From Candidatus Omnitrophota bacterium (GTDB lineage: Bacteria > Omnitrophota > Gorgyraeia > Zapsychrales > Zapsychraceae), in the NCBI GenBank assembly GCA_020429915.1, contig JAGQKV010000019.1:17282-81281 (forward strand): DNA of 64,000 nt. Direction: 5' to 3'. Below the pieces are notes generated by a model. The model did no database searches, had not been told where the DNA came from, and worked only from the letters and a program-made list of their open reading frames with translations. This document shows, one piece after another, positions 8,979 to 37,440 of the stretch (within the stretch, counting starts at the first letter, position 1; every line of letters starts with the position of its first letter). A program made the position numbers and the translations under genes.

Positions 8979-9539
8979 ATGACATCCATATCCGAAGAAA
9001 CCGAATCGATCTCCAGGCAAGCCAAGGCTGTCGTTTTTTGGTTCACGGGATTATCCGGTGCCGGAAAGTCCACTATCAGCGAGGCGGTCTCAGTAGAGAT
9101 GAGTAAATTGGGCATTCAGAACTATGTCCTGGACGGCGATAAAATTCGCAGGGGGTTGTGTTCGGATTTGGGTTTTTCTCACGACGACCGTACAGAGAAC
9201 ATCCGAAGGATCGGCGAGGTGGCGAAGTTGTTGTGTGATGCGGGGGTCGTTACGCTAGTCGCGTTCATATCACCGTACATGGCAGACAGAGACAATGTCC
9301 GCGGTATTTTGGATAAAGGAAAATTTGTCGAGATCTTTGTCGATTGTCCCCTGGAAGTATGTGAGCAAAGGGACGTCAAAGGACTATACCAAAAGGCCAG
9401 GAAAGGGGAGATTGCCAATTTTACGGGCATATCCGATCCCTACGAAGTGCCGGCCAATCCGGAGATTCATCTGCGGACGGATCAGTCCGATGTATCGGAT
9501 TGCGTGAAGAAAATTATTAAGTACTATTTGCATCAATGA
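8979..9539 (+). CDS. cysC: Adenylyl-sulfate (APS) kinase
   Basis: P-loop [13 protein letters not shown] motif, 'FISPY' region, 186 aa. Classical CysC architecture. Confidence 0.8.
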
Positions 9540-13953: not shown

Positions 13954-15717
13954 ATGAAAAGCCATACCTACATCATAAGTGAAATCGCCAGCACGCATGA
14001 GGGAGACTACGCTTATCTGCGTTCTTTAATAAAGGACGTCGCCAGTACCGGTGCGGATGCTATAAAGTTTCAAATTTTCCGTGCCGAGGAAGTTGTGGAT
14101 CCTGCGCATCCTGATTTTGGCGACTTGGAGCGATATCAATTTACCGCGGGACAGTGGAGTGAATTGATTATGCTGGCGCGGGAATATGCCTTGGATGTGT
14201 GGGTGGTCAGCTCTGGCGATTTCAGCCGAACGGTTATCCACGAAAACCGGGATCATATTCACGGAATTGAATTGCATGCATCGGATGTGGGAAATATAGT
14301 GATGCTGGAATTCGCCAATGAATGCGGCAAGCCGATGATCCTTAGTTGTGCCGGTGCGACGTTGAGCGAGATTATCGAGGCCCTGGACGTTTTAGACAAG
14401 GACCGCCAAATAATCTTAATGCATGGCTTTCAAGGGTACCCCACTCATTTGGACGATCTGAACATCGGCCGTATCCGCAGCCTAAAAAAGACGTTTCCGT
14501 TTCATATCGGATTCGCCGATCATATTTCGGGAGACCATCCGATGTCCGTGCTGTCTCCGTTGTTGGCGGTAGGGGCCGGCGCCGACGTGGTAGAGAAACA
14601 CATAACCCGCAATCGTGCCGAAAAACGTGATGACTATTTCAGTTCACTCGATCCGCAGGACTTCAAACGGATGGTAGAGTTGCTGCGCCAATCGGACGCA
14701 GCCCTGGGTACAGAGTTGTTCCGTTTCTCCGAAGCGGAAATCAAGTACCGCCGCGATATGAAAAAGAAAATCAAAGTCATGCAACCGATTGCGCCGGGGG
14801 AAGTCATCCGTCGTGGTCAGGTTGCATTTGTCCGTAACGCCGAGGGGACCGAACCGGTGTCCTTCGGCAGCATACAGCACAAACCCGTGAAGACCGCGTT
14901 GATCCCCGGGACCTTTCTCAGGGAAAGCCATTTACGCAATGAAGTGGGAGTTTTCGTAAACGCCCGTCTGCATTCGACCCGCTTGCCGCGCAAAGCCTTA
15001 AAGCCATTTTACGGGGGGATGACCACCATCGAATACCTGCTGAAGAGACTGACGTCGTATTCGGGGGATATTGGACGCATTGTGTTTGCGACCAGTACCG
15101 AAGAAGAAGACGCGCCGCTTGTCGATTGTGCGCGGAATATCGGTGTAGATTTTCTCCGGGGAGATCCGTTGGACATTATGCTGCGGATGTTGCAGGTGGT
15201 TGATCAATTTGGATTCACCACACTGGTACGGGTGACGGGTGACGATATTCTGGTATCGGGAGAGTACATCGAGAAGGCCCTTGAGTATCATTTTGAGCGA
15301 AATCTGGAATATACCCGGATCGCGGGACTGGCCTATGGAGCGGAATGTGAGATCATCGATACCAGTATGCTAAAACGCATTTATCCGCACGTGGTCCATA
15401 AGAAAGACACGGAATATCTGACGTGGTTCTTGGACGGATCCGGAGTATGCAAAACCGATATCATGCAAGCCCGGCAAGAAGATCAACGGCCGGACTACCG
15501 GCTGACCCTGGATTATCAAGAGGATTTTGATCTGATGCGGGACTTGGTTGAACAGTGTCACCCGAAAATCGAACAGTTTTACATCCCGCTGACAATGATC
15601 AATCAATATTTGGACGGAACACATTTGAATGTTCCGCATACGGATGCTTGGCAAAAAATCAGCCGGGAAGACATTGATGTTTCCTTGAACTATCAATTTG
15701 AGAGGGCAGCCCGATGA
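13954..15717 (+). CDS. Bifunctional fusion: NeuB-family nonulosonic-acid synthase (N-terminal ~320 aa, with SAF domain) plus acylneuraminate-type cytidylyltransferase domain (C-terminal ~260 aa)
   Basis: N-terminal NeuB TIM-barrel motifs (IISEIASTHEGD, DAIKFQ); SAF-like stretch (KVMQPIAPGEVI). The C-terminal half has a cytidylyltransferase signature NARLHSTRLPRKAL (the R..S.RLP.K motif of CMP-NeuAc/CMP-Kdo synthetases); 587 aa. Confidence 0.7.
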   Translation: MKSHTYIISEIASTHEGDYAYLRSLIKDVASTGADAIKFQIFRAEEVVDPAHPDFGDLERYQFTAGQWSELIMLAREYALDVWVVSSGDFSRTVIHENRDHIHGIELHASDVGNIVMLEFANECGKPMILSCAGATLSEIIEALDVLDKDRQIILMHGFQGYPTHLDDLNIGRIRSLKKTFPFHIGFADHISGDHPMSVLSPLLAVGAGADVVEKHITRNRAEKRDDYFSSLDPQDFKRMVELLRQSDAALGTELFRFSEAEIKYRRDMKKKIKVMQPIAPGEVIRRGQVAFVRNAEGTEPVSFGSIQHKPVKTALIPGTFLRESHLRNEVGVFVNARLHSTRLPRKALKPFYGGMTTIEYLLKRLTSYSGDIGRIVFATSTEEEDAPLVDCARNIGVDFLRGDPLDIMLRMLQVVDQFGFTTLVRVTGDDILVSGEYIEKALEYHFERNLEYTRIAGLAYGAECEIIDTSMLKRIYPHVVHKKDTEYLTWFLDGSGVCKTDIMQARQEDQRPDYRLTLDYQEDFDLMRDLVEQCHPKIEQFYIPLTMINQYLDGTHLNVPHTDAWQKISREDIDVSLNYQFERAAR

Positions 15718-16760
15718 AGGTCGGACAACACACCATCGGTGCGGGGCATCCCGTATTCATCATCGGGGAAATCGGCACCAACCACAACGGCCGAATAGAT
15801 ACGGCCAAGGAACTGATCGATATGGCCGCCGCTGCCGGAGTCAATGCCGTAAAGTTTCAGACTTTCAAGGCGACGGATATCATCAATCCCACATTGCCCG
15901 CAGATTATGATCCGCAGGAACCGGTCCCGTCCAAGTATACATACTTTCATGAGTATATCGCGGAGTATGAATTGCCGTATGAATGGCATGATGAATTGAT
16001 CACATATGCGTCGGCGCAGAGGATCGAGTTTATATCAACGCCGTGTTCACTGGAAGCCGTCGATTTTCTGGCCGACCGAATTCCCGCCTACAAGATTGCC
16101 TCCATGGACCTTAACAATGTGCGGCTGCTCAATGCCGTCGGGAGGAAACAGAAGCCGGTCATCATTTCCTCGGGGATTGGAAGTTTGGGTGACATAGAGA
16201 AGGCCTTGGATGTGCTGCGCGGCAGCGGCTGTCCTGAGATTTGTTTACTGCACTGCGTTTCCAATTATCCGGCCAAACCTGCGGAGCTGAATCTAAGAAA
16301 CATCAAGATGTTGGCCGCCGCGTTCGGAGTCCCGGTCGGCTTTTCAGATCACTCTCTGGGCTTTGTCAGTTCCGTCGTCGCGGTCGCGTTGGGCGCGTGT
16401 GTGATCGAAAAACATATTACCCTGGACCGGACCATGCCGGGGCCGGACCATTCCTTCGCGTTGGATAAGAACGGCCTCACTGATTTGGTAACGGCTGTCC
16501 GGGAGGCTGAAGCGTCATTGGGCCGTTCGACGCGGAGTATTAGCGCGGATGAACGGCCTAAGATCTCGACCTACCGGCGGAGTATCTGCTCGAATAAACC
16601 TCTCGCCAAGGGGCACCGGGTCACGGCCGGGGATATTGACATTATCCGCCCGGGAAACGGAATTGATCCCTACGATTTGGAAAAGGTTATCGGATTGAGT
16701 CTTCAACGGGAGATAGCGGCATTTACGCCGCTGTCGTGGGAATTATTTAAGGATGAATAG
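15714..16760 (+). CDS. NeuB/PseI/LegI-family N-acetylneuraminate (nonulosonate) synthase
   Basis: IIGEIGTNHNG, VKFQTFKA and a C-terminal SAF/antifreeze-like domain; 348 aa; ATGA overlap with the preceding gene. Confidence 0.85.
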   Translation: MKVGQHTIGAGHPVFIIGEIGTNHNGRIDTAKELIDMAAAAGVNAVKFQTFKATDIINPTLPADYDPQEPVPSKYTYFHEYIAEYELPYEWHDELITYASAQRIEFISTPCSLEAVDFLADRIPAYKIASMDLNNVRLLNAVGRKQKPVIISSGIGSLGDIEKALDVLRGSGCPEICLLHCVSNYPAKPAELNLRNIKMLAAAFGVPVGFSDHSLGFVSSVVAVALGACVIEKHITLDRTMPGPDHSFALDKNGLTDLVTAVREAEASLGRSTRSISADERPKISTYRRSICSNKPLAKGHRVTAGDIDIIRPGNGIDPYDLEKVIGLSLQREIAAFTPLSWELFKDE

Positions 16761-17781: not shown

Positions 17782-18317
17782 CCACGGTCGAACTTCTCTC
17801 CGAGGGAACCTTGGAACATTTGGCTGAGAGCCTGGTCGAACTGGATCAGTTCGTCGTGGCGGAAATGGCGGAGCTGTTCTCGAGCGAGCCCTGGCTGACG
17901 CGCCATTTCGCCATGCCCTTGCCGGACAAGTGGAATTTAAGCTGCGTCGCGACGGAAGGTCGGGAAGTGACGGCCTTTGTGATTGGGTCCAGGATTGCGC
18001 CGGATACGGGATATATCCACCGTTTTGTAGTGGCCCCGGCAGCCCGGTCCAAGGGGGTCGGATCCAAATTATTGGATTTCTTTCATAGCAAAGCCGGCGC
18101 ATTAGGGTTGAACCGGATTTTTCTGGAAGTCAACCGCCACAATTCCGGGGCGGTCAAATTTTACCGCAAGAACCGATACCTTGCGTGTGATGATGAACAG
18201 ATTCGGAATTATTTGATCATGAGGGACAAATTGGAGGAGGCCAAACTCGGAGATTCCTTCTATGTAGAAGAGGGATTTCCCGATGAGAAGTGTGTGATGC
18301 AGAGGATGATACGGTGA
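17766..18317 (+). CDS. GNAT-family N-acetyltransferase (PseH-like)
   Basis: GNAT motif A (HRFVVAPAARSKGVGSKLL); start at the ATG at 17766, overlapping the preceding gene by 16 nt (the track ORF began upstream inside the PseG-like gene). Confidence 0.65.
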   Translation: MSGRLATVELLSEGTLEHLAESLVELDQFVVAEMAELFSSEPWLTRHFAMPLPDKWNLSCVATEGREVTAFVIGSRIAPDTGYIHRFVVAPAARSKGVGSKLLDFFHSKAGALGLNRIFLEVNRHNSGAVKFYRKNRYLACDDEQIRNYLIMRDKLEEAKLGDSFYVEEGFPDEKCVMQRMIR

Positions 18318-20098
18318 AGATCATACTAACCCGATTATTCGGTGAATCAGCCGGTGAGAAGTCGTTGTACTTGGGACCGTGGTGCGTCGACTACTCCGCA
18401 GGTCAGCCGGCGGACGTCCGCCGGATCTTGGCGAATCCTTGGGCGGACCGGGAAAAGGTCGATCAAGCCGCCGAAGAATGTTTTGCCTATTACCTGAGGC
18501 TGATTAAAGAATTGACCCCGATATTTAATCGTATTCATGGGGTTAATAAGGAGGATCGCTATTGGAAGATACTTGTTGGTCCTTGGCTGCTGAGATTTTT
18601 GCACACGGCCTATGACAGATACATTCATATTGCCGCCGCCCGGGAGGCCTATGGTGAATTTGAGAGCGCGTGTCTTCAACCGGAAGACTATCTGACGCCA
18701 CAGAACACGCTGGATTTTAATTATCGGGTGTTTGATGATTTCTACAATCACCAGTTGTTTACCCGGATCGTCCGTCATATGGACCTGCCGCATTCCTTGC
18801 GGTCCGCCGTCGCGGGGACGACGAATTCCGGAAACGAGACGGAGTATATCAAACGGAAGGAACGATTGCGCGGCTTGAAGAAGCTGTTGAAGTGGGCCAG
18901 TTTTCGGATGGCGGCCAACCGCCGGACGTATTTGTGCGATGTTTATCTTTCGCGGCGCGACATACGCGACATGATTGTTCAAAGTAAGGGCGCTCTTTGG
19001 CCGAGCCAATACACTTGGGAGAATTCCTATCCGCGTATTTATCATAAGGATGAACTGAAACGTTCCGAGCTGAGCCGCATACCGTGGCGCAATGATTTTG
19101 AAGAACTGTTCGTCTCGTTGTTGGCGGATGAGATCCCGGCGCTTTATCTGGAAGGATATGCGTCGGCTTGTCAGCGCATACACGGCGAAATCCGGCGGAT
19201 GCCCGACCGCATTTTCTCTTCCATAGGCTGGTTCTTTAATGAACATCTGAAGTTCTTGGCGGCAGAAAGTCTGCAAAACGGGGTTCACCTTATCGGCAGT
19301 CAGCACGGAGGGGGATATGGTTCGGGTCGGATTCCGGTAGAGCGGCAGGAACTGGATTTGGTGGACACATATTGCACATGGGGTTGGCACGCTCACGGGT
19401 ATGATACGAGGGTGCTTCCGTCTCCGCGATTGCAAGAACAGTTTCGCCGCGAGCATTTGGCGGAGGCAGGACGTCCGGACATCCTCTTTGTGGGTACCAA
19501 CCATCCCCGCTACACTTACTATTTGTACAGTGTCCCATTGAACAGTCAGTTCGATGATTACATTGGCCAGCGCGCAGACTTTTACCGGGCGCTCGAGGGC
19601 ACCGCGCAGGCCGCCGTCCGTTGGCGATTGTACATGCGTCACTACGGCCGATTTGACCGGCAGCGGCTGGCGGCCGATATTCCGGAGGCGCGGTTCGACG
19701 AGGCGCCTTCGATGGAGGCGGCACTAAAAACAGCGCGACTGGCGGTCGTCGACCATTTGATGACCAGTTATCATGAACTGTTGGCGATGAATTTTCCCAC
19801 GATAGTTATCGGTAACGATCGATTATGGGAGGTGCGCGAAGGGGTGCGTGAATTGTATGAGACCTTACAGGAGGCGGGGATTCTGTTCTCAGACCCCCGG
19901 AAGGCGGCCGAGCATATAAATAAGGTTTACCATGATCCCGCCGCCTGGTGGTTCGGTCCGGAGGCCCAGGCGGCGCGCGGTGCTTTCTGCCGGCAAATGG
20001 CGTGCGGTTCTCCGCACTGGTGTTCCCTGTGGCAGCAGATGATCGCTCAACCGCGCCGCGCGGCGAAAAGCGAAGGAGAATTGAGTCGTGTCTGTTAA
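18314..20098 (+). CDS. Large uncharacterised protein, putative transferase of the glycan locus (GT-B/capsule-transferase-like)
   Basis: ~595-aa ORF with a probable GTG start at 18314 (GTGA overlap with the upstream stop). No family recognisable by eye. Distant architectural similarity to the 714-aa ORF at 40127. Confidence 0.45.
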   Translation: MKIILTRLFGESAGEKSLYLGPWCVDYSAGQPADVRRILANPWADREKVDQAAEECFAYYLRLIKELTPIFNRIHGVNKEDRYWKILVGPWLLRFLHTAYDRYIHIAAAREAYGEFESACLQPEDYLTPQNTLDFNYRVFDDFYNHQLFTRIVRHMDLPHSLRSAVAGTTNSGNETEYIKRKERLRGLKKLLKWASFRMAANRRTYLCDVYLSRRDIRDMIVQSKGALWPSQYTWENSYPRIYHKDELKRSELSRIPWRNDFEELFVSLLADEIPALYLEGYASACQRIHGEIRRMPDRIFSSIGWFFNEHLKFLAAESLQNGVHLIGSQHGGGYGSGRIPVERQELDLVDTYCTWGWHAHGYDTRVLPSPRLQEQFRREHLAEAGRPDILFVGTNHPRYTYYLYSVPLNSQFDDYIGQRADFYRALEGTAQAAVRWRLYMRHYGRFDRQRLAADIPEARFDEAPSMEAALKTARLAVVDHLMTSYHELLAMNFPTIVIGNDRLWEVREGVRELYETLQEAGILFSDPRKAAEHINKVYHDPAAWWFGPEAQAARGAFCRQMACGSPHWCSLWQQMIAQPRRAAKSEGELSRVC

Positions 20099-21176
20099 AA
20101 GCGGCCAACACGTACAATTTCGGAATCACGCTTTTATCGTGGGGTCCCTTAAAGTCGGGACAACTTTGTTGCTCTCGCTTTTGGAGGGACACAGGGATGC
20201 CCTGGCCTTTCCGTTTGAGTTGAAGTATCACAAGCTTTTTCATACCGCGGCCGGCGGCGCGTTGGGGAAGGCCCGGGATTTGAATGCGTTCTTCTTGACC
20301 GAGTCGAAATTTACCCATTTTCGAAAGGATCTGCACGACGATCCCTATAACACAGGGATGTTGGATTTCAGCGGTGTGGACTACGGGCGATTGACGGGTT
20401 ACCTAGACGCCTTGCCGAAGGAAGATTACCAGCGGTCGGAGTATTTTGAGGAATTGGCCCGCTCATATATGTACGCGACGGGTGATAGTCGCGAAATGAT
20501 ATCATGCCTTATTGAAAAACCCGGTAACCACGCCCTGGATTATATCGACACGATATATCAGGACTTTCCCGGCGCCAAGATTATCCATCTCGTCCGGGAT
20601 CCGCGCACGACGTTGTCCTCGGCCAAGAACGCCGTTATGAAATATAACGGCGTGTGGGGGCAGTACGAACCGAATGAGATTCTGGAGAAGATTCTTCAGG
20701 GGTTCGAGGTCGCCCGGAAATACGGCGGTACGGAGAGTTATAAAGTGATACGTTACGAGGATCTGGTCGCCCGGCCGCGCGAAGTGGTCGAAGATCTGCT
20801 CAAATGGCTTGGTTTACCGTGGGACGAAAACTGTTTGCGGCCGACGTTCCTGGGGCGGACGTGGCAAGGGAACAGCAGTTCGGATACCAAGTTCCAGGCG
20901 CCGAGCGTCGATCGGGTGGAATCCCCCACCGGAGAATTGACGGCCGGTGAAGATAAGTGGGTCGAGATTCGATTGGCGCGGTATTTGCGCGAATATTCTT
21001 ACTCTCAACGGCATGCGGACATGCCGGTCTTGGAGCGCGCATGGATGATCGTGTGGTTTGGATGCCTGCGGCCTTTATTCAGAAAAGTCGGCTGGACCGC
21101 CTCAAAATTGGTCCGACTTGACCGCTATCCGGCGTACATCAAGAAATGGAAACAGAAACGTGCACGAAGGAGATAA
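20088..21176 (+). CDS. Sulfotransferase (PAPS-dependent) family protein
   Basis: 5'-PSB loop-like IVGSLKVGTTLL and 3'-PB motif HLVRDPRTTLSS (RDPR), the two PAPS-binding signatures of sulfotransferases; 362 aa; GTG start. Confidence 0.65.
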   Translation: MSVKSGQHVQFRNHAFIVGSLKVGTTLLLSLLEGHRDALAFPFELKYHKLFHTAAGGALGKARDLNAFFLTESKFTHFRKDLHDDPYNTGMLDFSGVDYGRLTGYLDALPKEDYQRSEYFEELARSYMYATGDSREMISCLIEKPGNHALDYIDTIYQDFPGAKIIHLVRDPRTTLSSAKNAVMKYNGVWGQYEPNEILEKILQGFEVARKYGGTESYKVIRYEDLVARPREVVEDLLKWLGLPWDENCLRPTFLGRTWQGNSSSDTKFQAPSVDRVESPTGELTAGEDKWVEIRLARYLREYSYSQRHADMPVLERAWMIVWFGCLRPLFRKVGWTASKLVRLDRYPAYIKKWKQKRARRR

Positions 21177-21180
21177 CGTT

Positions 21181-30690: not shown

Positions 30691-31194
30691 ATGGGACGTG
30701 TCTATTGGATAACCGGCCTGTCCGGCGCCGGAAAAACGACCATTGCCGAAGCCTTGTTGAAGGCTATCCGGGAGGCGGGGCAGTCCGCGGTATTTCTCGA
30801 CGGAGATCAATTGCGGGAGGTGTTCGGCCGGCGCGAGGCCTATCAGCGGGAGGACCGCCTGGATTTGGCCCTGCAGTATGCGCGGTTGTGCAAGATGCTG
30901 AGTGAACAGGGATTGACCGTGATCTGCGCGACGATATCGTTATTTAAGGAAGTGCATGCCTGGAACCGGGAGCACATTCCCGGTTATACAGAAATCTTCC
31001 TGAAAGTCCCATTGGACGTCTTGCGGGCGCGTGATTCCAAGGCTATCTACAGCCAGGCGGCGGAAGGAAAATTGCAGCAGGTCATGGGGGTGGACATCCC
31101 GCATGATGAGCCGCCGAGCCCGGATCTGGAAATCGTCAATGACGGAAGCCGGTCACCGGCGGAGATCGCCAGGATTATTTATGAGCTTCATTGA
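30691..31194 (+). CDS. CysC/APS-kinase-homologous small kinase (Cj1415-like, candidate cytidine diphosphoramidate kinase)
   Basis: P-loop GLSGAGKTT and LDGD motif; 167 aa. First gene of a five-gene block that matches the MeOPN pathway. Confidence 0.75.
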   Translation: MGRVYWITGLSGAGKTTIAEALLKAIREAGQSAVFLDGDQLREVFGRREAYQREDRLDLALQYARLCKMLSEQGLTVICATISLFKEVHAWNREHIPGYTEIFLKVPLDVLRARDSKAIYSQAAEGKLQQVMGVDIPHDEPPSPDLEIVNDGSRSPAEIARIIYELH

Positions 31195-33532
31195 AACCAC
31201 ATTCAAATTCGGGACCAAAGCGGAAACACTGGAACGGATCGGACCGTTACTGGAAACGATCCGCTGTCCCCAGTTGTTTTATTTTACCGTCACCGATTGG
31301 CGGACCGACGCGCAGGGTTGTCTGAGCAAGGCCCGCGCAATGTATGCTGATGCGGTCCGGATGGTGGTCCGCAGCAGCGCCCAAGGGGAGGACCGCCAAG
31401 AATCATCTATGGCCGGCGCGTATTGCAGCGTCCTGAATGTGACTCATGACAAGCTGACCGAAAGCATCGAGACGGTCATAAAATCGTATGGTGGTCACGG
31501 CGGTGATCAGGTCCTTATTCAGCCGATGATATCGGATATTGCCGTCAGCGGAGTTATTATGACGCGCAATCTGGAAGACGGCGCCCCGTACTATGTGATC
31601 AACTACGATGATCTGTCCGGCAAGACCGATTCGATTACCGGAGGCGTCGGCGTCCATAAGACGGTTTTGGTAAGCCGTGACTGCGACGAGGCCAACTTCG
31701 ATTCGCGCCGGTTAAAGGCCATGGTGCGGCTGGCCAAGGACGTGGAAAAGATTACTCGCGACACACCCGTCGATATCGAATTCGCGCTGGGCGAGGACCT
31801 TGTTCCCTATTTATTTCAGGTGCGGCCCATCAGCGTGTGTCAGAACTGGGACGGCCGTATGGCGGATCAGGTCCGGGAATCCATTCCGCACGTCGAACGG
31901 CTCGTTCGCGAGCAGTCGGCGCGGCAACCCGGCATTTACGGTGACCGGACGATCCTGGCCAATATGTCCGACTGGAATCCCGCCGAGATGATCGGGGTGC
32001 ATCCGGACCCGTTGGCGGCGAGCCTCTACCGTGAATTAATCACCAAGTATGTGTGGCAGCGCGCGCGGGCCGAAATGGGATACTATGGGGTCGACGCGGA
32101 ACTGATGACTTTTCTGTACGGTCAGCCGTATATTGACGTTCGCCTCAGTTTTAATTCTTTTTTACCGGAAGACTTATCGACGGACGTGTCCGAGAAACTG
32201 GTGAACGCGTGGCTGGACCGCTTGGACCGTCATCCGGAACTGCATGACAAGGTGGAGTTCGACGTCGCCCAGACGTGTCTGGATTTTTCTTTTGACCGCG
32301 ATTTGGACGAACGCTATCCCGGATTGCTCAATAAGGCGGAGCGCGAGGAATTCCGTACGGCGTTGAGGACTTTGACGCAGCGGGCGTTGACGCTGGATTC
32401 CGGAAATACGCTGTCGCAGGCGATGGAGCGGATCCGCGGGCTCGCGGAGAGGCAGCGGCAGGAGCGGCATCCTACGTTAAAGGACCTGGTGGAGGAGTGC
32501 AAGCTGGAGGGAACGCTGCCGTTTTCGATGATCGCCCGGCACGCGTTTATTGCGGAGAAGATTCTCCGATCGGCGGTGGAATCCGGGGCCTTAACCGAAG
32601 AACGGCTGCAGCAGTTCAAGACGTCCGTGCACACGGTGACGAGCGCGATGGCCGGCGATTTGAAGAAGGTCGCCGAGCAGACCATGCCGCAGGAAGAATT
32701 TCTTAAGGAGTACGGTCACCTGAGACCCGGAACGTATGATATCCAGTCCCTGTCCTACCGGGACAGGTCCGCGCTGTTCGCGGGAGGCATCCGGTTGCCG
32801 GAACGGCGGCACACCGAAGATTTTGAACTAAACCCGGAAGAGGCACGGCGTTTGAATGCCCTGTTGGCCGGGGCCGGATTGACGGTGGCGGCGACGGATC
32901 TTCTGGTACATGCCCGTCTGGCGATCGAAGGCCGGGAATATGCCAAGTTCGTCTTTACCCGCAATATATCCGAGATCCTGGAAATGCTTGTCGGATGGGG
33001 CGAAAGGCACGGGTACTCCCGGGAAGATTTGGCGTGTTTGACCATCCACGATTTTCTGTCGGTTGAGGACCCTCAGCACCTGGCTGGCCGAATAGCAGAG
33101 GTCAGCGATGCCGTCCGCCGGGAACAGGCGCTCAGCCGGCATTTAAAACTCAGCTATCTGATTCGCGGCGTGCGCGACATATATATCGTTCCCCTGCATC
33201 GCAGCGCCCCCAATTTTATCGGGCAGGTCCGGATTACCGGAGAGACCGTGATCCTCGACGCGCATTCCGGGGCGGAAGTGGATATTGAAGGTAAGATCGT
33301 TTGTATCGAAAATGCGGACCCCGGTTTCGATTGGATATTCACCAAGGGTTTAAAGGCGCTGATCACAAAGTTCGGCGGGGCGAATTCCCATATGGCGATC
33401 CGCTGCGCCGAATTCGGATTGCCGGCCGCGATCGGTTGCGGGGAGGAAGTCTTTCAGCGTGTCGTGGACGCCGGACATGTCGAGCTGAACGGTTCGGATA
33501 AGACGTTGCGGCCGATCGGAATGGAGTCGTGA
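31181..33532 (+). CDS. PPDK/PEP-synthase N-terminal (ATP-grasp) domain plus C-terminal PEP-utilising swivel phosphohistidine domain, with no PEP-binding TIM barrel; rifampin-phosphotransferase / Cj1418 (L-glutamine kinase)-like
   Basis: 783 aa. The mobile-domain signature GGANSHMAIRCAEFGLPAAIGCG lies at the extreme C-terminus (the PEP synthase arrangement would put it in the middle). Start at the ATG at 31181, overlapping the upstream stop by 14 nt. Confidence 0.7.
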   Translation: MSFIETTFKFGTKAETLERIGPLLETIRCPQLFYFTVTDWRTDAQGCLSKARAMYADAVRMVVRSSAQGEDRQESSMAGAYCSVLNVTHDKLTESIETVIKSYGGHGGDQVLIQPMISDIAVSGVIMTRNLEDGAPYYVINYDDLSGKTDSITGGVGVHKTVLVSRDCDEANFDSRRLKAMVRLAKDVEKITRDTPVDIEFALGEDLVPYLFQVRPISVCQNWDGRMADQVRESIPHVERLVREQSARQPGIYGDRTILANMSDWNPAEMIGVHPDPLAASLYRELITKYVWQRARAEMGYYGVDAELMTFLYGQPYIDVRLSFNSFLPEDLSTDVSEKLVNAWLDRLDRHPELHDKVEFDVAQTCLDFSFDRDLDERYPGLLNKAEREEFRTALRTLTQRALTLDSGNTLSQAMERIRGLAERQRQERHPTLKDLVEECKLEGTLPFSMIARHAFIAEKILRSAVESGALTEERLQQFKTSVHTVTSAMAGDLKKVAEQTMPQEEFLKEYGHLRPGTYDIQSLSYRDRSALFAGGIRLPERRHTEDFELNPEEARRLNALLAGAGLTVAATDLLVHARLAIEGREYAKFVFTRNISEILEMLVGWGERHGYSREDLACLTIHDFLSVEDPQHLAGRIAEVSDAVRREQALSRHLKLSYLIRGVRDIYIVPLHRSAPNFIGQVRITGETVILDAHSGAEVDIEGKIVCIENADPGFDWIFTKGLKALITKFGGANSHMAIRCAEFGLPAAIGCGEEVFQRVVDAGHVELNGSDKTLRPIGMES

Positions 33533-33534
33533 AC

Positions 33535-34152
33535 ATGATAAAGATCGGTATCACCATGCGCGTAGTGGAGGCTCAAGGATACCGGGAACCCCGGGACGCC
33601 CTCGCCCAGGATTGGACGGATTTTATGGCGGTGGCCTTTCCCGAATGTCTGTGGATGCCCGTTCCCAATGTGGGTAACCGTGTGGTTGAGTATGTGCGGG
33701 CCTGGGATCTCGACGCCTTTATTTTCTCCGGGGGAAATGATTTGGGGTCGTCGCCGCGGCGCGATCAGACGGAGCAGGCCCTGCTGAAGTATGCCGTGGA
33801 GAACCGGCTGCCTGTCTTCGGCGTCTGCCGCGGGCTGCAACTGCTCCATCAGTATTACGGAGGGGCCTTGGAGCCGTGTGATGCCGGCGTGCACGTGGCC
33901 GCGCAGCATGATGTGGATTTGAACGGAGAAACGTATCGGGTGAATTCCTATCATAATTTCGGTATCCGCGAGACCGCCGTCAGTCCCGCCCTCACGGTTA
34001 TCGCACGAACCGGCGACGGTTGGGTGGAGGGGGTGGATCTGACCGACGCGCCGGGCCGGGCGGTGATGTGGCATCCCGAACGCGACCGACCCTACCGGAA
34101 ACGGGATATTCAATTGATGCGCGAATGTTTATTGGAAGGAGTACCCTCATGA
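33535..34152 (+). CDS. Class I glutamine-amidotransferase-like (peptidase C26 / gamma-glutamyl hydrolase) protein, Cj1417-like
   Basis: GATase1 nucleophile elbow GVCRGLQLL and a C-terminal His region (WHPE); 205 aa. Confidence 0.7.
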   Translation: MIKIGITMRVVEAQGYREPRDALAQDWTDFMAVAFPECLWMPVPNVGNRVVEYVRAWDLDAFIFSGGNDLGSSPRRDQTEQALLKYAVENRLPVFGVCRGLQLLHQYYGGALEPCDAGVHVAAQHDVDLNGETYRVNSYHNFGIRETAVSPALTVIARTGDGWVEGVDLTDAPGRAVMWHPERDRPYRKRDIQLMRECLLEGVPS

Positions 34153-34901
34153 AGGCTGTGATTCTGGCCGCCGGGCGCGGTTCCCGCATGAAAGGATTAA
34201 CCGACGAGAAACCGAAATGTCTGAACGAGCTGCTGGGGCGGCCGCTGTTTGACTGGCAGCAGGAATCCCTGCGTGAGGCCGGCATCACGGATATCGTCGT
34301 GGGCCGCGGCTACCGGAAGGAATTGCTGACCGGAGATTTTCAAACCGCCGACAATGACCGCTGGGACCAGACGAATATGGTGTATACGCTGCTGTGTGCC
34401 GCACCGTATTTGCGCGCGGACACGTGCGTGGTGTCCTACGCCGACATCGTGTATCATCCGGACCACGTCCGGGCCTTGATGGCGGCCGCCGGCGACGTGG
34501 TAATCACCTATGACACGCTGTGGCGGCCGTTATGGGAATTGCGGTTTCCGGATCCGCTGGCCGATGCCGAGACATTGCGTATCGACGAACGCGGTATCAT
34601 TCAGGAAATCGGCCAAAAGGCGGCGTCTCTCGAGGAGATTCAAGGGCAGTATATGGGATTGCTGAAATTCACGCCGCAGGGTTGGGGGCAAGTCGAAGAA
34701 CTGCTCAACCAAATGCCCCCCGCCGATTTGGACCGGCTGGATATGACGTCGTTGTTGCAAAAGGTTATCCGTCGCGGAATTCCGATCAATACGGTCGGAG
34801 TGAAGGGGCGATGGTGTGAAATCGATAGCGAAACGGATCTTGACGTTTGCACGAAACACGCAAACACCGATCAATGGGAACATGACTGGAGATGGGAGTA
34901 G
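34149..34901 (+). CDS. Sugar/phospho-substrate nucleotidyltransferase (NTP_transferase fold; LicC/Cj1416-like cytidylyltransferase)
   Basis: N-terminal AVILAAGRGSRM motif; 250 aa; ATGA overlap start at 34149 (track ORF started upstream at 34020). Confidence 0.8.
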   Translation: MKAVILAAGRGSRMKGLTDEKPKCLNELLGRPLFDWQQESLREAGITDIVVGRGYRKELLTGDFQTADNDRWDQTNMVYTLLCAAPYLRADTCVVSYADIVYHPDHVRALMAAAGDVVITYDTLWRPLWELRFPDPLADAETLRIDERGIIQEIGQKAASLEEIQGQYMGLLKFTPQGWGQVEELLNQMPPADLDRLDMTSLLQKVIRRGIPINTVGVKGRWCEIDSETDLDVCTKHANTDQWEHDWRWE

Positions 34902-34904
34902 AGG

Positions 34905-35684
34905 ATGAGTACATCAATCAAACATGGTGATTTTAGTCTTTTGGCCGAGAATTATTCTAAATATCGGCCGGGCTATAGTGAAGATATTCTGGAATTGGTT
35001 TTGACCAAGGTGGGCAAGCCGATATCCGAACTCGATTTCGTCGATGTGGGCGCCGGAACGGGCATCTGGACGCGGATGGTGGCGGAGGCCGGTTGCCGCA
35101 CCACGGCGGTTGAGCCGAACAATGAAATGAGAAAGTATGGCGAGAGTACGGATCCGCATTTGAAAATTAATTGGGTGAAAGGGGCCGCTGAGTCGACGAC
35201 GCTGCCGGACAGCAGCTGCGATCTGGTCAGTATGGCTTCCTCGTTTCATTGGCCTGATTTTGACAGCGCGGTTCATGAATTTCATCGGATCTTGCGGCCG
35301 CAGGGATATTTCGTGGCCCTGTGGAATCCGCGCTTGATCGAAGTCAATCCGATGTTGGTTACGATAGAGAACAAATTGAAAGAATTGGTGCCGCATATGA
35401 AGCGCAAGTCATCCGGCCGTTCAGAATTCTGTGATAATTTGACTGACCGGCTGTTGCAAAGCGGTTGCTTCCAGAATGTGATTTACATGGAAGGCCGTCA
35501 CGTCGAGAGAATGTCCCCGGAGAGGTATATAGGGATATGGAATTCGGTTAATGATATCCGCAGTCAGGCCGGGGAGGAAAAGTTCCAGGAATTTATGGAT
35601 TTTGTCGAACGAACGATAGCGGGACTTGATGCCATTGAAGCAACGTACCTTACACGGGCGTGGTTGGCTCAAGTAAAGAAATAG
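34905..35684 (+). CDS. Class I SAM-dependent methyltransferase (Cj1419/Cj1420-like)
   Basis: SAM-binding motif I VDVGAGTG; 259 aa. Confidence 0.8.
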   Translation: MSTSIKHGDFSLLAENYSKYRPGYSEDILELVLTKVGKPISELDFVDVGAGTGIWTRMVAEAGCRTTAVEPNNEMRKYGESTDPHLKINWVKGAAESTTLPDSSCDLVSMASSFHWPDFDSAVHEFHRILRPQGYFVALWNPRLIEVNPMLVTIENKLKELVPHMKRKSSGRSEFCDNLTDRLLQSGCFQNVIYMEGRHVERMSPERYIGIWNSVNDIRSQAGEEKFQEFMDFVERTIAGLDAIEATYLTRAWLAQVKK

Positions 35685-36306: not shown

Positions 36307-37440
36307 ATGCACGAGGGTCCTAAGATAATTTTTCTGGTCTGCGCCGGGCGCACCGGTTCCAGTTTTCTGCATACGTTGCTGGATTCGCATCCGGAGGTGT
36401 TAATGCTGCCGATGGAATTGTCTTTTTACCGGATGTGGGACCGGCTGGGCTGTGATCAGGTTAAGGACGCTGAGGAAATGGTCCGCCGCTGGACCGAGCA
36501 ATCGAAGCTGGCCAAATTGGCGGACAACGTCAATTACGGTATCGACGGCTCCACCAACGCGTATACGAGTTGTGATTTCCCGATCTTCCGGGACAGGTTT
36601 TTGTGTCTTCTGCGGGAGACTTCGCTCAGCCGCCGGGATGTCTTTTACGCGATCCACCGGGCGTATGCCGATGCCACCGGGGGGGATCTGTCCCGGTATC
36701 AGGTGATCATCGAGTTTTCCGCCATTTACATCGATATCGGCCGTGCCGTGGAGGACTTTCGGGAACCGCGGTTTATCCAGGTGGTGCGCGACCATCGGGC
36801 GACGTATGCCTCGATCAAACAGCATTTTTTGAACACGCGCCGCGGATTGTTCAACCTGCGGGGCAAGACACTGGAGCAAAAGTTGTCATTAATCCGGATC
36901 TTTAACAATTTTATCCGGACGATCAACAAACTGCGCGCGGGATTCGCCGCGCTCCCCGCTGATCATGTGCTGTACGTGAAACAGGAGGACTTGCATCTGA
37001 ATCTTGAGCCGACCATGCGGGAGGTCGCCGGGTGGTTGCAGATCGCATATGAGCCGTGCCTGCTGCACAGCACCCTGGCCGGTCATCCCTGGCAGGGCAA
37101 CAGCGCTTTCGGTAAGGCCGTCGCCGGAGCGACCCCGGAGGTGACCCGCCGCTGGATGACGACACTCAGTCCGCAGGAAATCCGGGTCATCGAGTATGTA
37201 TTCGGTGATGACATGGAGCGATTCGGTTACGCGTATTCCGCCGCTCGGCGGCCTTCGCGGTGGCAGGTTACGTGTGGAGGATTAATTCCTTTCCGCGGAG
37301 AGCTGGCCATCCTCGGCCGAAGCGCCAGACATATTGCCTTGGATATTATGAAGTGGCCGCTGCGCCTGGGGGCCTATCTGATGAGCCGGTTCTATCTGCT
37401 ACGGATCATCGCCGACGGAAAGAGGTTCGTGAATGGCTAA
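36307..37440 (+). CDS. Sulfotransferase-family protein (second copy)
   Basis: N-terminal P-loop-like FLVCAGRTGSSFL (5'-PSB) and VVRDHRATYAS (3'-PB RD.R) motifs; 377 aa. Confidence 0.6.
   Translation: MHEGPKIIFLVCAGRTGSSFLHTLLDSHPEVLMLPMELSFYRMWDRLGCDQVKDAEEMVRRWTEQSKLAKLADNVNYGIDGSTNAYTSCDFPIFRDRFLCLLRETSLSRRDVFYAIHRAYADATGGDLSRYQVIIEFSAIYIDIGRAVEDFREPRFIQVVRDHRATYASIKQHFLNTRRGLFNLRGKTLEQKLSLIRIFNNFIRTINKLRAGFAALPADHVLYVKQEDLHLNLEPTMREVAGWLQIAYEPCLLHSTLAGHPWQGNSAFGKAVAGATPEVTRRWMTTLSPQEIRVIEYVFGDDMERFGYAYSAARRPSRWQVTCGGLIPFRGELAILGRSARHIALDIMKWPLRLGAYLMSRFYLLRIIADGKRFVNG

What the first reader, a model, noticed from the sequence alone, without database searches (positions are those of the whole stretch)
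20088..21176. Sulfotransferases plus an APS kinase embedded in the glycan locus (predicted sulfated glycan)
Two proteins (20088-21176 and 36307-37440) carry both PAPS-binding signatures (5'-PSB P-loop-like and 3'-PB RDxR) in the usual order. A classical cysC lies at 8979 as the second gene of the island, so PAPS supply would be co-encoded. Sulfated nonulosonic acids or sulfated O-antigens are rare in bacteria.
Basis: partly seen in the sequence, partly recalled or inferred. Interest (0 to 1): 0.55.

Follow-up and report, generated by a model that had tools for sequence, protein, structure and literature searches.

The report
Two sulfotransferase-fold enzymes, two donor pathways
A surface-sugar gene island of an uncultured Omnitrophota bacterium does encode two sulfotransferase-like enzymes and a true APS kinase, but one of the two enzymes always travels with a Campylobacter-type phosphoramidate-donor gene set, so it may attach phosphoramidate rather than sulfate.

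Summary
ST1 (20088-21176) and ST2 (36307-37440) are sulfotransferase-fold proteins: they pass the Pfam Sulfotransfer_3 threshold, keep both donor-binding motifs, and their AlphaFold models match only PAP(S)-dependent sulfotransferases. The gene at 8979-9539 is a genuine APS kinase.

No ATP sulfurylase lies in the window. It heads a five-gene set matching the Campylobacter jejuni Cj1415-Cj1420 pathway, which makes 3'-phospho-CDP-phosphoramidate, a structural analogue of PAPS.

- **ST2:** it lies about 620 bp downstream of that set. All three detectable close relatives (40-46% identity) are adjacent to the same set, even where gene order and the surrounding sugar genes differ. Among 80 other species carrying the set, 14 have a sulfotransferase-like gene nearby, and in 11 it lies within 300 bp. 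In two of them it is the only extra gene in the operon.
- **ST1:** it travels with a LIC12162-family transferase and nonulosonic-acid genes.

My best reading is that ST1 uses PAPS to sulfate a nonulosonic-acid glycan, and ST2 is a phosphoramidate transferase. This rests on gene context, not biochemistry.

The parts
8979..9539 (+). CysC1: a genuine adenylyl-sulfate (APS) kinase and the presumed PAPS source for sulfation.
   Evidence: It scores 226 bits on Pfam APS_kinase and 267.7 bits on TIGR00455, cut-off 138.7. All canonical APS-kinase motifs are retained.
18290..20098 (+). LIC12162-family transferase (602 aa), the conserved neighbour of the ST1 clade. Its end overlaps the ST1 start by 11 nt.
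   Evidence: TIGR04331 scores 400.3 bits, cut-off 225. The same family is adjacent to ST1 relatives in L007, L008 and L093.
20088..21176 (+). ST1: a sulfotransferase-fold enzyme and the most likely PAPS-dependent glycan sulfotransferase of the island.
   Evidence: PF13469 E=8.5e-23. PDB sequence hits are 4gox at 5e-8 and 4gbm at 7.7e-7. AlphaFold pLDDT is 92 and the best Foldseek match is 4gbm at 1.2e-9. Motifs K22xGTT, P-F-E44-L and R170DPR are present.
30691..31194 (+). K2: an atypical APS-kinase-like protein of the Cj1415 (CDP-phosphoramidate 3'-kinase) type.
   Evidence: NF004041 scores 196.6 bits (cut-off 127), but TIGR00455 scores 123.1, below its cut-off of 138.7. It lacks the DLGF and FTG phenylalanines that true CysC keeps, as do 63 kinases found next to the cassette in other loci.
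31181..33532 (+). L-glutamine-kinase-like protein (Cj1418 type). The mechanical ORF starts at 31031; the likely true start is ATG 31181 or 31139.
   Evidence: NF004508 scores 880.9 bits, cut-off 501. PPDK_N and PEP-utilizers domains are present. The phospho-histidine motif S-H787-M-A is present.
33529..34152 (+). Gamma-glutamyl-CDP-amidate-hydrolase-like class I amidotransferase (Cj1417 type).
   Evidence: The best NCBIfam hit is NF045546 at 115.9 bits, below its cut-off of 250. Peptidase_C26 and GATase domains are present. The triad C100 (GVCRG) and H182-P-E184 is intact.
34149..34901 (+). Nucleotidyltransferase (Cj1416 type, phosphoglutamine cytidylyltransferase-like). The mechanical ORF starts at 34020; the likely start is ATG 34149, overlapping the previous stop.
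   Evidence: NTP_transf_3 E=3.7e-17. The best PDB hit is a CTP:phosphocholine cytidylyltransferase, 1jyk. The gene is conserved in 73 of 80 cassette loci.
34905..35684 (+). Class I SAM methyltransferase of the cassette, a candidate O-methylase that would give methyl phosphoramidate.
   Evidence: Methyltransf_11 E=1.1e-18. It is conserved next to ST2 homologues in L001, L002 and L004.
36307..37440 (+). ST2: a sulfotransferase-fold enzyme whose conserved partner is the phosphoramidate cassette, making it a candidate phosphoramidate transferase.
   Evidence: PF13469 E=4.4e-15. AlphaFold pLDDT is 90.2 and Foldseek matches TPST2 and CurM ST. All three homologues are adjacent to the cassette. Only 23 relatives reach E<=1e-30 among 1.84 billion representative proteins.
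13954..16760 (+). A NeuB-cytidylyltransferase fusion and a second NeuB. These nonulosonic-acid synthesis genes are upstream of ST1 and point to its likely acceptor.
   Evidence: NeuB plus CTP_transf_3, and NeuB plus SAF. A third NeuB lies at 21058-22218.
37433..39177 (+). A GFO/IDH/MocA oxidoreductase and a CMP-sugar synthetase-like gene directly downstream of ST2. They are colinear in L001 and L002 but absent in L004.

Best explanation
The window carries a surface-glycan island of about 55 kb from a Candidatus Omnitrophica (Omnitrophota) genome. Two sulfotransferase-fold enzymes in it are served by two different 3'-phosphonucleotide donor pathways.

**1. The PAPS route (ST1).**
- CysC1 (8979-9539) converts APS to PAPS. 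The APS would come from an ATP sulfurylase encoded elsewhere.
- ST1 (20088-21176) transfers sulfate from PAPS to a hydroxyl or amine of a glycan containing a nonulosonic acid.
- That glycan is built by the neighbouring NeuB and cytidylyltransferase genes and the LIC12162-family transferase.

**2. The phosphoramidate route (ST2).** Each step is inferred by homology to C. jejuni enzymes.
- The glutamine-kinase-like protein phosphorylates the amide nitrogen of glutamine.
- The nucleotidyltransferase makes CDP-glutamine.
- The amidohydrolase releases CDP-phosphoramidate.
- K2 phosphorylates its 3'-OH, giving 3'-phospho-CDP-phosphoramidate.
- ST2 (36307-37440) binds this PAPS look-alike through its 5'-phosphate and 3'-phosphate loops. 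It transfers the phosphoramidate group to a sugar hydroxyl and releases 3',5'-CDP.
- The adjacent methyltransferase adds the O-methyl group, before or after transfer.

**Shown versus inferred.**
- Shown: fold, motifs, family membership, and conserved gene neighbourhood.
- Inferred: every substrate, the donor of each transferase, and the acceptors.
For: **Fold and motifs of ST1 and ST2:**

**The two kinases differ.** CysC1 is a true APS kinase. K2 falls below the APS-kinase cut-off, passes NF004041, and lacks the two phenylalanine motifs.

**The cassette matches the C. jejuni pathway.**
- NF004508 scores 880.9 bits, and the best hit of the amidohydrolase is 'gamma-glutamyl-CDP-amidate hydrolase'.
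- Catalytic motifs are intact.
- PMC11800397 states that Cj1415-Cj1418 make CDP-phosphoramidate 3'-phosphate from glutamine, ATP and CTP.

**ST2 is linked to the cassette.**
- ST2 has only three detectable homologues at 40-46% identity, and each is adjacent to the cassette. In L004-L006 the cassette is inverted and the sugar genes are different.
- Only K2, the glutamine-kinase-like gene, the hydrolase, the nucleotidyltransferase, the methyltransferase and ST2 are shared by all contexts.

**The link recurs in other species.**
- Among 80 species loci fetched with the glutamine-kinase-like protein, 14 hold a sulfotransferase-like ORF at E<1e-5.
- In 11 of those it lies within 300 bp of a cassette gene, several with 4-nt overlaps. 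The binomial probability against random slot placement is about 3e-7.
- These ORFs fall on at least four separate branches of the family tree.
- Twelve of the 15 aligned sequences, which include the four ST2-clade proteins, hit PF13469.

**Self-contained operons.**
- In L021 and L017 the operon is sulfotransferase-like gene plus cassette only. It is flanked by RND-efflux or Trk potassium-transport genes.
- L034 has two tandem sulfotransferase-like genes plus the cassette.

**No local PAPS supply where the link is tightest.** None of the 11 loci has sulfate-activation genes within 10 kb.

**ST1 link.** The closest ST1 relatives are adjacent to LIC12162-family and NeuB/CTP_transf_3 genes. L093 has the same GNAT-LIC12162-ST order as the window. 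ST1 has the stronger sequence similarity to characterised PAPS enzymes.
Against: - **No biochemistry.** The sulfotransferase fold has, to my knowledge, only been shown to use PAPS.
- **PAPS-linked relatives exist in the same subfamily.** P0047 groups with the ST2 clade and carries the same G-R-x-G-S 5' loop, yet it lies directly next to an ATP-sulfurylase/APS-kinase fusion. No sequence feature was found that separates the two donors.
- **The fusion protein does not decide the question.** P0073 joins an APS-kinase-like domain to an ST2-like domain. Its kinase keeps APS-kinase-like phenylalanines, and it lies in a phosphonate/nonulosonic-acid cluster without the glutamine kinase.
- **Most cassette loci lack a sulfotransferase-like gene.** This applies to 65 of 80. 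They carry other candidate transferases instead: roughly 450-610 aa proteins with no Pfam hit, or TagF-like proteins.
- **ST2 is not strictly contiguous with the cassette here.** It is separated from the methyltransferase by about 620 bp holding a frameshifted small ORF.
- **Sulfate activation does sometimes sit beside the cassette.** This occurs in L088, L068, L023 and L099.
- **C. jejuni proteins could not be fetched.** Homology to Cj1415-Cj1422 rests on NCBIfam models and gene content, not on direct alignment.
- **ST1's donor is assigned largely by elimination.**
Confidence: 0.5

Rival explanations
1. Both ST1 and ST2 are ordinary PAPS-dependent carbohydrate sulfotransferases fed by CysC1. 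The glycan would then be both sulfated and phosphoramidated. The phosphoramidate would be transferred by a different, unrecognised protein, for example the 714-aa or 342-aa proteins with no Pfam hit.
For: - All solved structural neighbours use PAPS.
- A true cysC is in the island.
- P0047, a member of the same subfamily, sits next to an ATP-sulfurylase/APS-kinase fusion.
- Several window proteins have no assigned family and could be the real transferase.
- Sulfate-activation genes occur beside the cassette in L088, L068, L023 and L099.
Against: - The ST2 clade keeps the cassette, not cysC, as its neighbour in every context. In L004 no other window gene is retained.
- Sulfotransferase-like genes from at least four branches lie against the cassette in 11 unrelated species without local PAPS genes.
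- In L021 and L017 the operon holds nothing else that could be the transferase.
- The 714-aa protein is absent from L002 and L004.
Confidence: 0.3
2. Both ST1 and ST2 are phosphoramidate transferases for two acceptor positions, as Cj1421 and Cj1422 are in C. jejuni. CysC1 would then serve another purpose or another donor.
For: - C. jejuni uses two transferases for one donor pathway (PMC3907429).
- L034 and L011 carry two sulfotransferase-like genes beside one cassette.
- ST1 lies only 9.5 kb upstream of K2 in the same co-directional island.
Against: - The ST1 clade is linked to LIC12162 and NeuB genes. No cassette is visible on its relatives' contigs, although those contigs are short.
- An island-encoded canonical APS kinase would be left without a client.
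- ST1 has the canonical K-x-G-T-T loop and clearer similarity to PAPS enzymes.
Confidence: 0.08
3. The sulfotransferase-like proteins next to the cassette do not decorate the glycan. They act on a small-molecule intermediate. Examples are transfer of the phosphoramidate to a nucleotide sugar or lipid carrier, or sulfation of the phosphoramidate nitrogen.
For: - In L021 and L017 the operons have no glycan genes nearby.
- A DegT aminotransferase accompanies the cassette in 34 of 80 loci, which hints at a dedicated sugar intermediate.
Against: - No precedent known to me.
- In the window and in L001-L003, ST2 sits among glycan-assembly genes.
- The chemistry of a hydroxyl attacking the activated group is the same in either case, so this is a variant of the main explanation rather than a true alternative.
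Confidence: 0.07

Closest known systems
Campylobacter jejuni O-methyl phosphoramidate (MeOPN) capsule modification pathway, Cj1415-Cj1422
   Same: - The gene content for the donor is the same. It has an APS-kinase-like 3'-kinase, a PPDK-like glutamine kinase, a class I amidotransferase-type hydrolase, a cytidylyltransferase and SAM methyltransferases, all embedded in a surface-polysaccharide locus (PMC11800397, PMC3907429).
- The predicted donor, 3'-phospho-CDP-phosphoramidate, is a PAPS analogue.
   Different: - The host is an uncultured Omnitrophota bacterium, not an epsilonproteobacterium.
- The gene order differs.
- The conserved candidate transferase is a 377-aa sulfotransferase-fold protein.
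- Cj1421 and Cj1422 were assigned genetically and were originally annotated as glycosyltransferases (PMC9561416).
- No direct comparison with Cj1421/Cj1422 was possible.
- The window has no homologue of the roughly 450-610 aa families that occupy this position in Desulfovibrio loci.
PAPS-dependent sulfotransferases of the Sulfotransfer_3 group (CurM and olefin-synthase ST domains, tyrosylprotein sulfotransferases, mycobacterial Stf enzymes, rhizobial NodH/NoeE)
   Same: - The fold is the same.
- The 5'-phosphosulfate loop, the 3'-phosphate Arg/Ser motif and the E-D-L segment are present.
- ST1 and the ST2 clade keep a Glu in a P-x-E-L segment that aligns with PPEL of CurM ST.
   Different: - Sequence identity is only 13-20%.
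- ST2 has G-R-T-G-S-S instead of the usual (K/R)-S-G-T-T.
- ST2's conserved neighbours make a cytidine phosphoramidate donor rather than PAPS.
Capsule-adjacent sulfation cluster of C. jejuni HS:19 (cysD, cysN, sulfate permease, cysC, putative sulfotransferase)
   Same: An APS kinase and a putative sulfotransferase are encoded beside surface-glycan genes, with a predicted sulfated glycan (PMC8743553).
   Different: The HS:19 cluster encodes the whole route, including ATP sulfurylase and a transporter. The window has only the kinase.

Membership tests
Sulfotransferase fold / Pfam Sulfotransfer_3 (PF13469) | Profile match above the curated gathering score. | tested here: met
   ST1 scores 82.2 bits and ST2 57.0 bits; the cut-off is 27.
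Sulfotransferase fold / Pfam Sulfotransfer_3 (PF13469) | A 5'-phosphosulfate-binding loop, (K/R)-x-G-(S/T)-(S/T), near the N-terminus. | tested here: met
   ST1 has K22-V-G-T-T and ST2 has R15-T-G-S-S. These align to PRSGST of 4gox/4gbm and PRSGTT of TPST1.
Sulfotransferase fold / Pfam Sulfotransfer_3 (PF13469) | A 3'-phosphate-binding Arg followed by Ser at a helix start. | tested here: met
   ST1 has R170-D-P-R...S177/S178 and ST2 has R161-D-H-R...S169. The Arg is invariant across 49 family members.
Sulfotransferase fold / Pfam Sulfotransfer_3 (PF13469) | A catalytic base. In CurM ST this is a Glu in the PPEL segment; that role is recalled from memory, not checked here. | tested here: inconclusive
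   - ST1 E44 (P-F-E-L) aligns to PPEL of 4gox/4gbm, in a low-scoring segment.
- ST2 E38 (P-M-E-L) aligns to it only through the family alignment.
- The Glu is not conserved in other cassette-adjacent members, which have PANY, PPYI or PGRI.
Sulfotransferase fold / Pfam Sulfotransfer_3 (PF13469) | Three-dimensional fold of PAP(S)-binding sulfotransferases. | tested here: met
   AlphaFold2 pLDDT is 92.0 and 90.2. All significant Foldseek PDB matches are PAP(S) sulfotransferases.
Sulfotransferase fold / Pfam Sulfotransfer_3 (PF13469) | Use of PAPS as the sulfuryl donor. | not testable with these tools
   This needs an enzyme assay. Gene context favours PAPS for ST1 and a cytidine phosphoramidate donor for ST2.
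Complete PAPS supply (ATP sulfurylase plus APS kinase) | An APS kinase that passes an equivalog model. | tested here: met
   The gene at 8979-9539 scores 267.7 bits on TIGR00455, cut-off 138.7.
Complete PAPS supply (ATP sulfurylase plus APS kinase) | An ATP sulfurylase (CysDN or Sat) encoded with it. | tested here: not met
   - No such Pfam family appears among the + strand ORFs of the window that were scanned.
- phmmer with CysD, CysN and Sat seeds hits only the two kinases in the window.
- The rest of the genome could not be searched.
APS kinase (CysC), applied to the second kinase at 30691-31194 | Equivalog score and the APS/adenine-contacting motifs (DLGFS, ENIRR, FTG). | tested here: not met
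   TIGR00455 scores 123.1, below 138.7. The motifs are replaced, as in 63 cassette-linked kinases.
MeOPN donor pathway (Cj1415-Cj1418 type) | An L-glutamine kinase of the PPDK-like type with a phospho-histidine domain. | tested here: met
   - NF004508 scores 880.9 bits, cut-off 501.
- PPDK_N and PEP-utilizers domains are present, and the S-H787 motif is present.
- That NF004508 is the Cj1418 family is from my memory, not stated by the tool.
MeOPN donor pathway (Cj1415-Cj1418 type) | A gamma-glutamyl-CDP-amidate hydrolase. | tested here: inconclusive
   NF045546 is the best hit, but its 115.9 bits fall below the cut-off of 250. The Cys-His-Glu triad is present.
MeOPN donor pathway (Cj1415-Cj1418 type) | A phosphoglutamine cytidylyltransferase. 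| tested here: inconclusive
   Only generic NTP_transf_3 and NTP_transferase matches were found. The position and conservation in the cassette fit.
MeOPN donor pathway (Cj1415-Cj1418 type) | A CDP-phosphoramidate 3'-kinase (APS-kinase homologue). | tested here: met
   NF004041 scores 196.6 bits, cut-off 127. Its nucleotide pocket is altered relative to CysC. The substrate was not tested.
MeOPN donor pathway (Cj1415-Cj1418 type) | A Cj1421/Cj1422-type transferase. | not testable with these tools
   - No C. jejuni sequence could be retrieved; Campylobacter was not among the 80 loci kept, and PDB holds none.
- The no-Pfam families that sit by the cassette in Desulfovibrio are absent from the window and unrelated to the sulfotransferase family (HHalign probability 0.13%).
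LIC12162 family transferase (TIGR04331) | Profile match above the cut-off. | tested here: met
   The gene at 18290-20098 scores 400.3 bits, cut-off 225.

The most novel reading that the evidence does not exclude
A branch of the sulfotransferase fold has been recruited, repeatedly and in several phyla, as the transferase for the PAPS-like donor 3'-phospho-CDP-phosphoramidate. ST2 and its relatives would then be the missing, biochemically tractable phosphoramidate transferases.

Phosphoramidate decoration of surface glycans has been treated as a Campylobacter speciality. It would instead occur in at least about 190 bacterial and archaeal species, including Omnitrophota, Desulfovibrio, Azospirillum and a DPANN archaeon.

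The window's organism would carry a glycan that is both sulfated and phosphoramidated, using two parallel pairs of kinase and sulfotransferase-fold transferase.
Probability: 0.5. Interest if true: 0.78.

Novelty: new variant of a known kind. Interest (0 to 1): 0.62.

Why it matters
**An open step becomes testable.** The step that moves phosphoramidate from its nucleotide donor onto the sugar has not been reconstituted. As of 2025, the groups working on C. jejuni still list it as future work (PMC12409886, PMC11800397). A soluble protein of about 43 kDa with a well-understood fold, always found beside the donor genes, would allow direct assays. These would compare PAPS with 3'-phospho-CDP-phosphoramidate, and PAP binding with 3',5'-CDP binding.

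**A fold would gain a second donor.** The result would show that the sulfotransferase fold is not restricted to sulfuryl transfer.

**Annotation.** 'Sulfotransferase' and 'adenylyl-sulfate kinase' labels in glycan loci could no longer be read as evidence of sulfation.

**Distribution of the pathway.** A 2022 review still calls the glutamine kinase 'C. jejuni-specific' (PMC9561416), yet the scan here found relatives in 190 species' genomes.

**If only the ordinary reading holds.** The finding would then be a routine sulfotransferase plus cysC pair in a nonulosonic-acid locus of an uncultured bacterium.

Tried and rejected
- **Sequence features to separate donors.** I looked for a feature separating PAPS users from cytidine-donor users. 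The G-R-x-G-S loop of the ST2 group looked promising, but P0047, which sits next to an ATP sulfurylase, shares it. Rejected as diagnostic.
- **Domain fusions.**
  - P0073 joins an APS-kinase-like domain to an ST2-like domain, but its kinase is intermediate between the two kinase types. Its locus is a phosphonate/nonulosonic-acid cluster without the glutamine kinase. Not decisive.
  - P0053 is a sulfotransferase-GNAT fusion and P0140 a CysQ-like-sulfotransferase fusion. Neither bears on the question.
- **More ST1 contexts.** The metagenome scan with the ST1-clade alignment returned one 2.6-kb fragment. More distant ST1 relatives (P0012, P0016) gave mixed contexts.
- **Retrieving C. jejuni Cj1421/Cj1422 or the Raushel-group kinase papers.**
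  - The papers are not held.
  - Campylobacter was not among the 80 loci kept.
  - PDB holds no MeOPN enzymes by sequence.
  - The profile search returned no Campylobacter protein.
- **The afdb50 fold library** was not available.
- **A shared transferase in loci without a sulfotransferase-like gene.** None exists. I found at least three unrelated candidates: 'u600A', 'u600B' and TagF-like.
- **The 413-aa protein beside the cassette in L004** was considered as an alternative conserved partner. It has no homologue anywhere else.
- **The N-terminus of the 846-aa Azospirillum kinase fusion** looks by eye like a Sulfotransfer_2 domain. No tool confirmed it.

Full report
**1. What is in the window**

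- Nearly all genes run on the + strand.
- G+C falls from about 0.58 to 0.49 at about 8 kb. Upstream of that point lie cobalamin-related and TonB-receptor genes.
- From 8.4 kb to the end lies a surface-glycan island. It contains:
  - three NeuB homologues, one of them fused to a cytidylyltransferase;
  - several DegT aminotransferases, epimerases and dehydratases;
  - a formyltransferase;
  - an ABC exporter;
  - a Wzy-like protein;
  - GT2, GT4 and WecG glycosyltransferases;
  - a Bac_transf initiating transferase.
- The two proteins of the finding are identical to database entries called 'sulfotransferase [Candidatus Omnitrophica bacterium]'.

**2.

- **Family membership.** ST1 (20088-21176) and ST2 (36307-37440) pass Pfam Sulfotransfer_3 at E=8.5e-23 and 4.4e-15.
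- **Motifs.**
  - ST1 has K22-V-G-T-T, P-F-E44-L and R170-D-P-R...S.
  - ST2 has R15-T-G-S-S, P-M-E38-L and R161-D-H-R...S169.
- **Similarity to solved proteins.**
  - ST1 has significant sequence similarity to the olefin-synthase and CurM sulfotransferase domains (5e-8 and 7.7e-7) and to TPST1.
  - ST2 has none that is significant (E=0.18).
- **Predicted folds.** The AlphaFold2 models are confident (pLDDT 92.0 and 90.2). They match only PAP(S)-binding sulfotransferases.
- **The kinase.** The gene at 8979-9539 is a canonical APS kinase. It scores 267.7 bits on TIGR00455, cut-off 138.7, and has all the usual motifs.
- **Its setting.** It is packed 10-29 bp from its neighbours in the same operon-like run as the sugar genes. 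That placement fits a role in glycan sulfation rather than in sulfur assimilation.
- **Missing partner.** No ATP sulfurylase is present in the window.

**3.

Directly upstream of ST2 lie five genes:

| Coordinates | Product | Key evidence |
|---|---|---|
| 30691-31194 | APS-kinase-like protein | Fails the APS-kinase cut-off (123.1 < 138.7) but passes NF004041 (196.6 > 127) |
| about 31181-33532 | PPDK_N + PEP-utilizers protein | 880.9 bits on NF004508 |
| 33529-34152 | Class I amidotransferase | Best NCBIfam hit is 'gamma-glutamyl-CDP-amidate hydrolase'; Cys-His-Glu triad intact |
| about 34149-34901 | NTP_transf_3 nucleotidyltransferase | Generic family match only |
| 34905-35684 | SAM methyltransferase | Methyltransf_11, E=1.1e-18 |

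- This is the gene content of C. jejuni cj1415-cj1420.
[quoted passage not shown] - That donor differs from PAPS only in the base and in having PO2NH2 in place of SO3.
- In an alignment of 63 such cassette-linked kinases against three true CysC proteins, the cassette type lacks the DLGF and FTG phenylalanines. From memory of APS-kinase structures, these stack on adenine.

**4. ST2 belongs with the cassette**

- ST2 is rare.
  - A word-indexed search of 5.8 billion clusters gave three relatives at 40-46% identity.
  - An exhaustive search of 1.84 billion representatives gave 23 proteins at E<=1e-30.
- Every one of the three relatives is adjacent to the same five genes.
- L001 and L002/L003 are colinear with the window.
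- In L004-L006 the cassette is on the opposite strand, divergent from the ST2 gene, and the sugar genes are unrelated.
- Only the kinase, glutamine kinase, hydrolase, nucleotidyltransferase, methyltransferase and ST2 are shared by all.

**5. The association recurs elsewhere**

A scan of one genome per species with the glutamine-kinase-like protein found 190 relatives, and 80 loci were kept. These include Desulfovibrio, methylotrophs, Rhodospirillales, Fibrobacterota, Lentisphaerae and a Pacearchaeota archaeon.

- **How often a sulfotransferase-like gene is present.**
  - Pfam confirms PF13469 in 12 of the 15 sequences submitted, which include the four ST2-clade proteins.
- **How close it lies.** In 11 loci the ORF lies within 300 bp of a cassette gene, often with a 4-nt overlap. 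The probability against random placement among the locus's gene slots is about 3e-7.
- **Independent lineages.** These ORFs sit on at least four different branches of a family tree, which argues for repeated recruitment.
- **Self-contained operons.**
  - In an uncultured Desulfovibrio (L021) and a proteobacterial MAG (L017), the operon is sulfotransferase-like gene plus cassette and nothing else.
  - It is bounded by RND-efflux genes and a MalK-like ATPase in L021, and by TrkH/TrkA in L017.
  - L034 has two tandem sulfotransferase-like genes plus the cassette.
- **A cultured example.** Azospirillum lipoferum 4B plasmid AZO_p6 carries the cassette with two genes that RefSeq calls 'sulfotransferase domain-containing protein'.
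- **No local PAPS genes.** None of the 11 tight loci has cysD, cysN, sat or a true cysC within 10 kb.

**6. Limits of that inference**

- Sixty-five of the 80 loci have no sulfotransferase-like gene.
  - Many Desulfovibrio loci instead carry roughly 450-610 aa proteins with no Pfam hit, sometimes in tandem and fragmented. These are unrelated to the sulfotransferase family (HHalign probability 0.13%). They may be the Cj1421/Cj1422 family, but I could not obtain those sequences.
  - A second architecture has the kinase, two or three small unknown proteins, the glutamine kinase, the hydrolase and the nucleotidyltransferase. It also carries TagF-like, DegT and hexapeptide genes and no methyltransferase. 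It dominates in methylotrophs and gammaproteobacteria.
- Within ST2's own subfamily, P0047 is followed by an ATP-sulfurylase/APS-kinase fusion.
  - PAPS users and cassette-linked members are therefore interleaved.
  - No motif separates them.
- The kinase-sulfotransferase fusion P0073 lies in a phosphonate cluster and does not settle the matter.
- Sulfate-activation genes do occur beside the cassette in L088, L068, L023 and a Vibrio plasmid. I cannot explain this.

**7. ST1**

- Its closest relatives (38-45% identity) are adjacent to a LIC12162-family protein and NeuB/cytidylyltransferase genes.
- L093 reproduces the window's GNAT-LIC12162-ST order.
- A 29%-identical relative sits in another nonulosonic-acid cluster.
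- No cassette and no cysC are visible on those contigs, but they are short (4.6-10.5 kb).
- ST1 has the canonical K-x-G-T-T loop and the better match to characterised PAPS enzymes.
- The island encodes a true APS kinase that needs a client.
- I therefore assign PAPS to ST1, partly by elimination.

**8. Verdict**

- The finding is real.
- The 'sulfated glycan' reading is plausible for ST1.
- For ST2 the better-supported reading is transfer of phosphoramidate from the PAPS-like cytidine donor (about 0.5). The ordinary PAPS reading is the main rival (about 0.3).
- The literature available to me describes no sulfotransferase-fold phosphoramidate transferase. It treats the transfer step as unresolved (PMC12409886).
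- This is a new variant of known kinds rather than a new category.
- It is testable with standard enzymology.

Noticed in passing
window 35729-36231 (G9 tract at 35783-35791): A small ORF with a signal-peptide-like N-terminus (MSNLKRVLVLTLVLMLSVGGG...) is broken by a run of nine G. This is the only G/C homopolymer of 8 or more in the 64 kb. With ten G it reads through to a 167-aa protein. It sits between the cassette methyltransferase and ST2 and is absent from the colinear loci L001-L003. It could be a phase-variable gene or a homopolymer sequencing error.
   Followed up: partly
L010-L089 (genome-contig scan): The glutamine-kinase-like gene with its hydrolase and nucleotidyltransferase occurs in at least 190 species' genomes across many phyla, although a 2022 review calls the enzyme C. 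jejuni-specific. There are two main architectures. One has a methyltransferase (Desulfovibrio, Omnitrophota). The other has none but carries TagF-like, DegT and hexapeptide genes plus two or three small unknown proteins (methylotrophs, gammaproteobacteria).
   Followed up: partly
L032:3688-9597, L038:7849-9741, L035:7933-9765, L080:8195-9880, L055:8494-10107: In gut Desulfovibrio loci, a family of roughly 450-610 aa proteins with no Pfam hit lies directly beside the cassette. L032 has three tandem copies. Short fragment ORFs in L032 and L038 suggest frameshifts. This is reminiscent of the tandem, phase-variable cj1421/cj1422, but identity with them was not tested.
   Followed up: partly
L096:10001-11785 (protein P0073) and neighbours: A 594-aa fusion joins an APS-kinase-like domain to an ST2-like domain (34% identity to ST2). 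It lies in a cluster with a PEP-mutase/cytidylyltransferase fusion, a TPP decarboxylase, NeuB, a weak LIC12162 hit and several radical SAM genes. It raises the idea that pairs of a 3'-kinase and a sulfotransferase-fold enzyme may also serve CMP-phosphonate donors.
   Followed up: partly
L098:5632-8172 (Azospirillum lipoferum 4B plasmid AZO_p6, WP_244442704.1): An 846-aa protein annotated 'adenylyl-sulfate kinase' has a cassette-type kinase domain at residues 657-817. Its roughly 650-aa N-terminal part begins MFIHFDLPRAAGDSL...FVRNPFDWYISSYYW. By eye this resembles Sulfotransfer_2-type donor-binding motifs, but no tool confirmed it.
   Followed up: partly
L088:16873-21661; L068:13848-16037; L023:5442-6161; L099:2660-6854: Sulfate-activation genes sit beside the phosphoramidate cassette in a few species. 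The genes involved are cysD, cysN, an SLC13 permease, true cysC, or an ATP-sulfurylase-like ORF inserted between the nucleotidyltransferase and the kinase. This is unexplained.
   Followed up: partly
L071:8707-15053 (Candidatus Pacearchaeota archaeon): A DPANN archaeal contig carries the whole cassette with a sulfotransferase-like gene beside it.
   Followed up: no
window 47996-50141: An APH-family kinase, an NTP_transferase and a HAD phosphatase lie in a row. This may be a further small-molecule decoration route of the LicA/LicC kind. That reading is from memory and was not tested.
   Followed up: no
window 13954-15717: A 587-aa fusion joins a NeuB-like domain to a CTP_transf_3 cytidylyltransferase. 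It is one of three NeuB homologues in the island.
   Followed up: no
window 40106-42250 and 16753-17781: Large proteins of 714 and 342 aa have no family in the Pfam copy used. The 714-aa protein has a homologue in L001. A 684-aa protein at the same position in L002 carries a faint PF27878 'PFTS_polysacc' mark.
   Followed up: no
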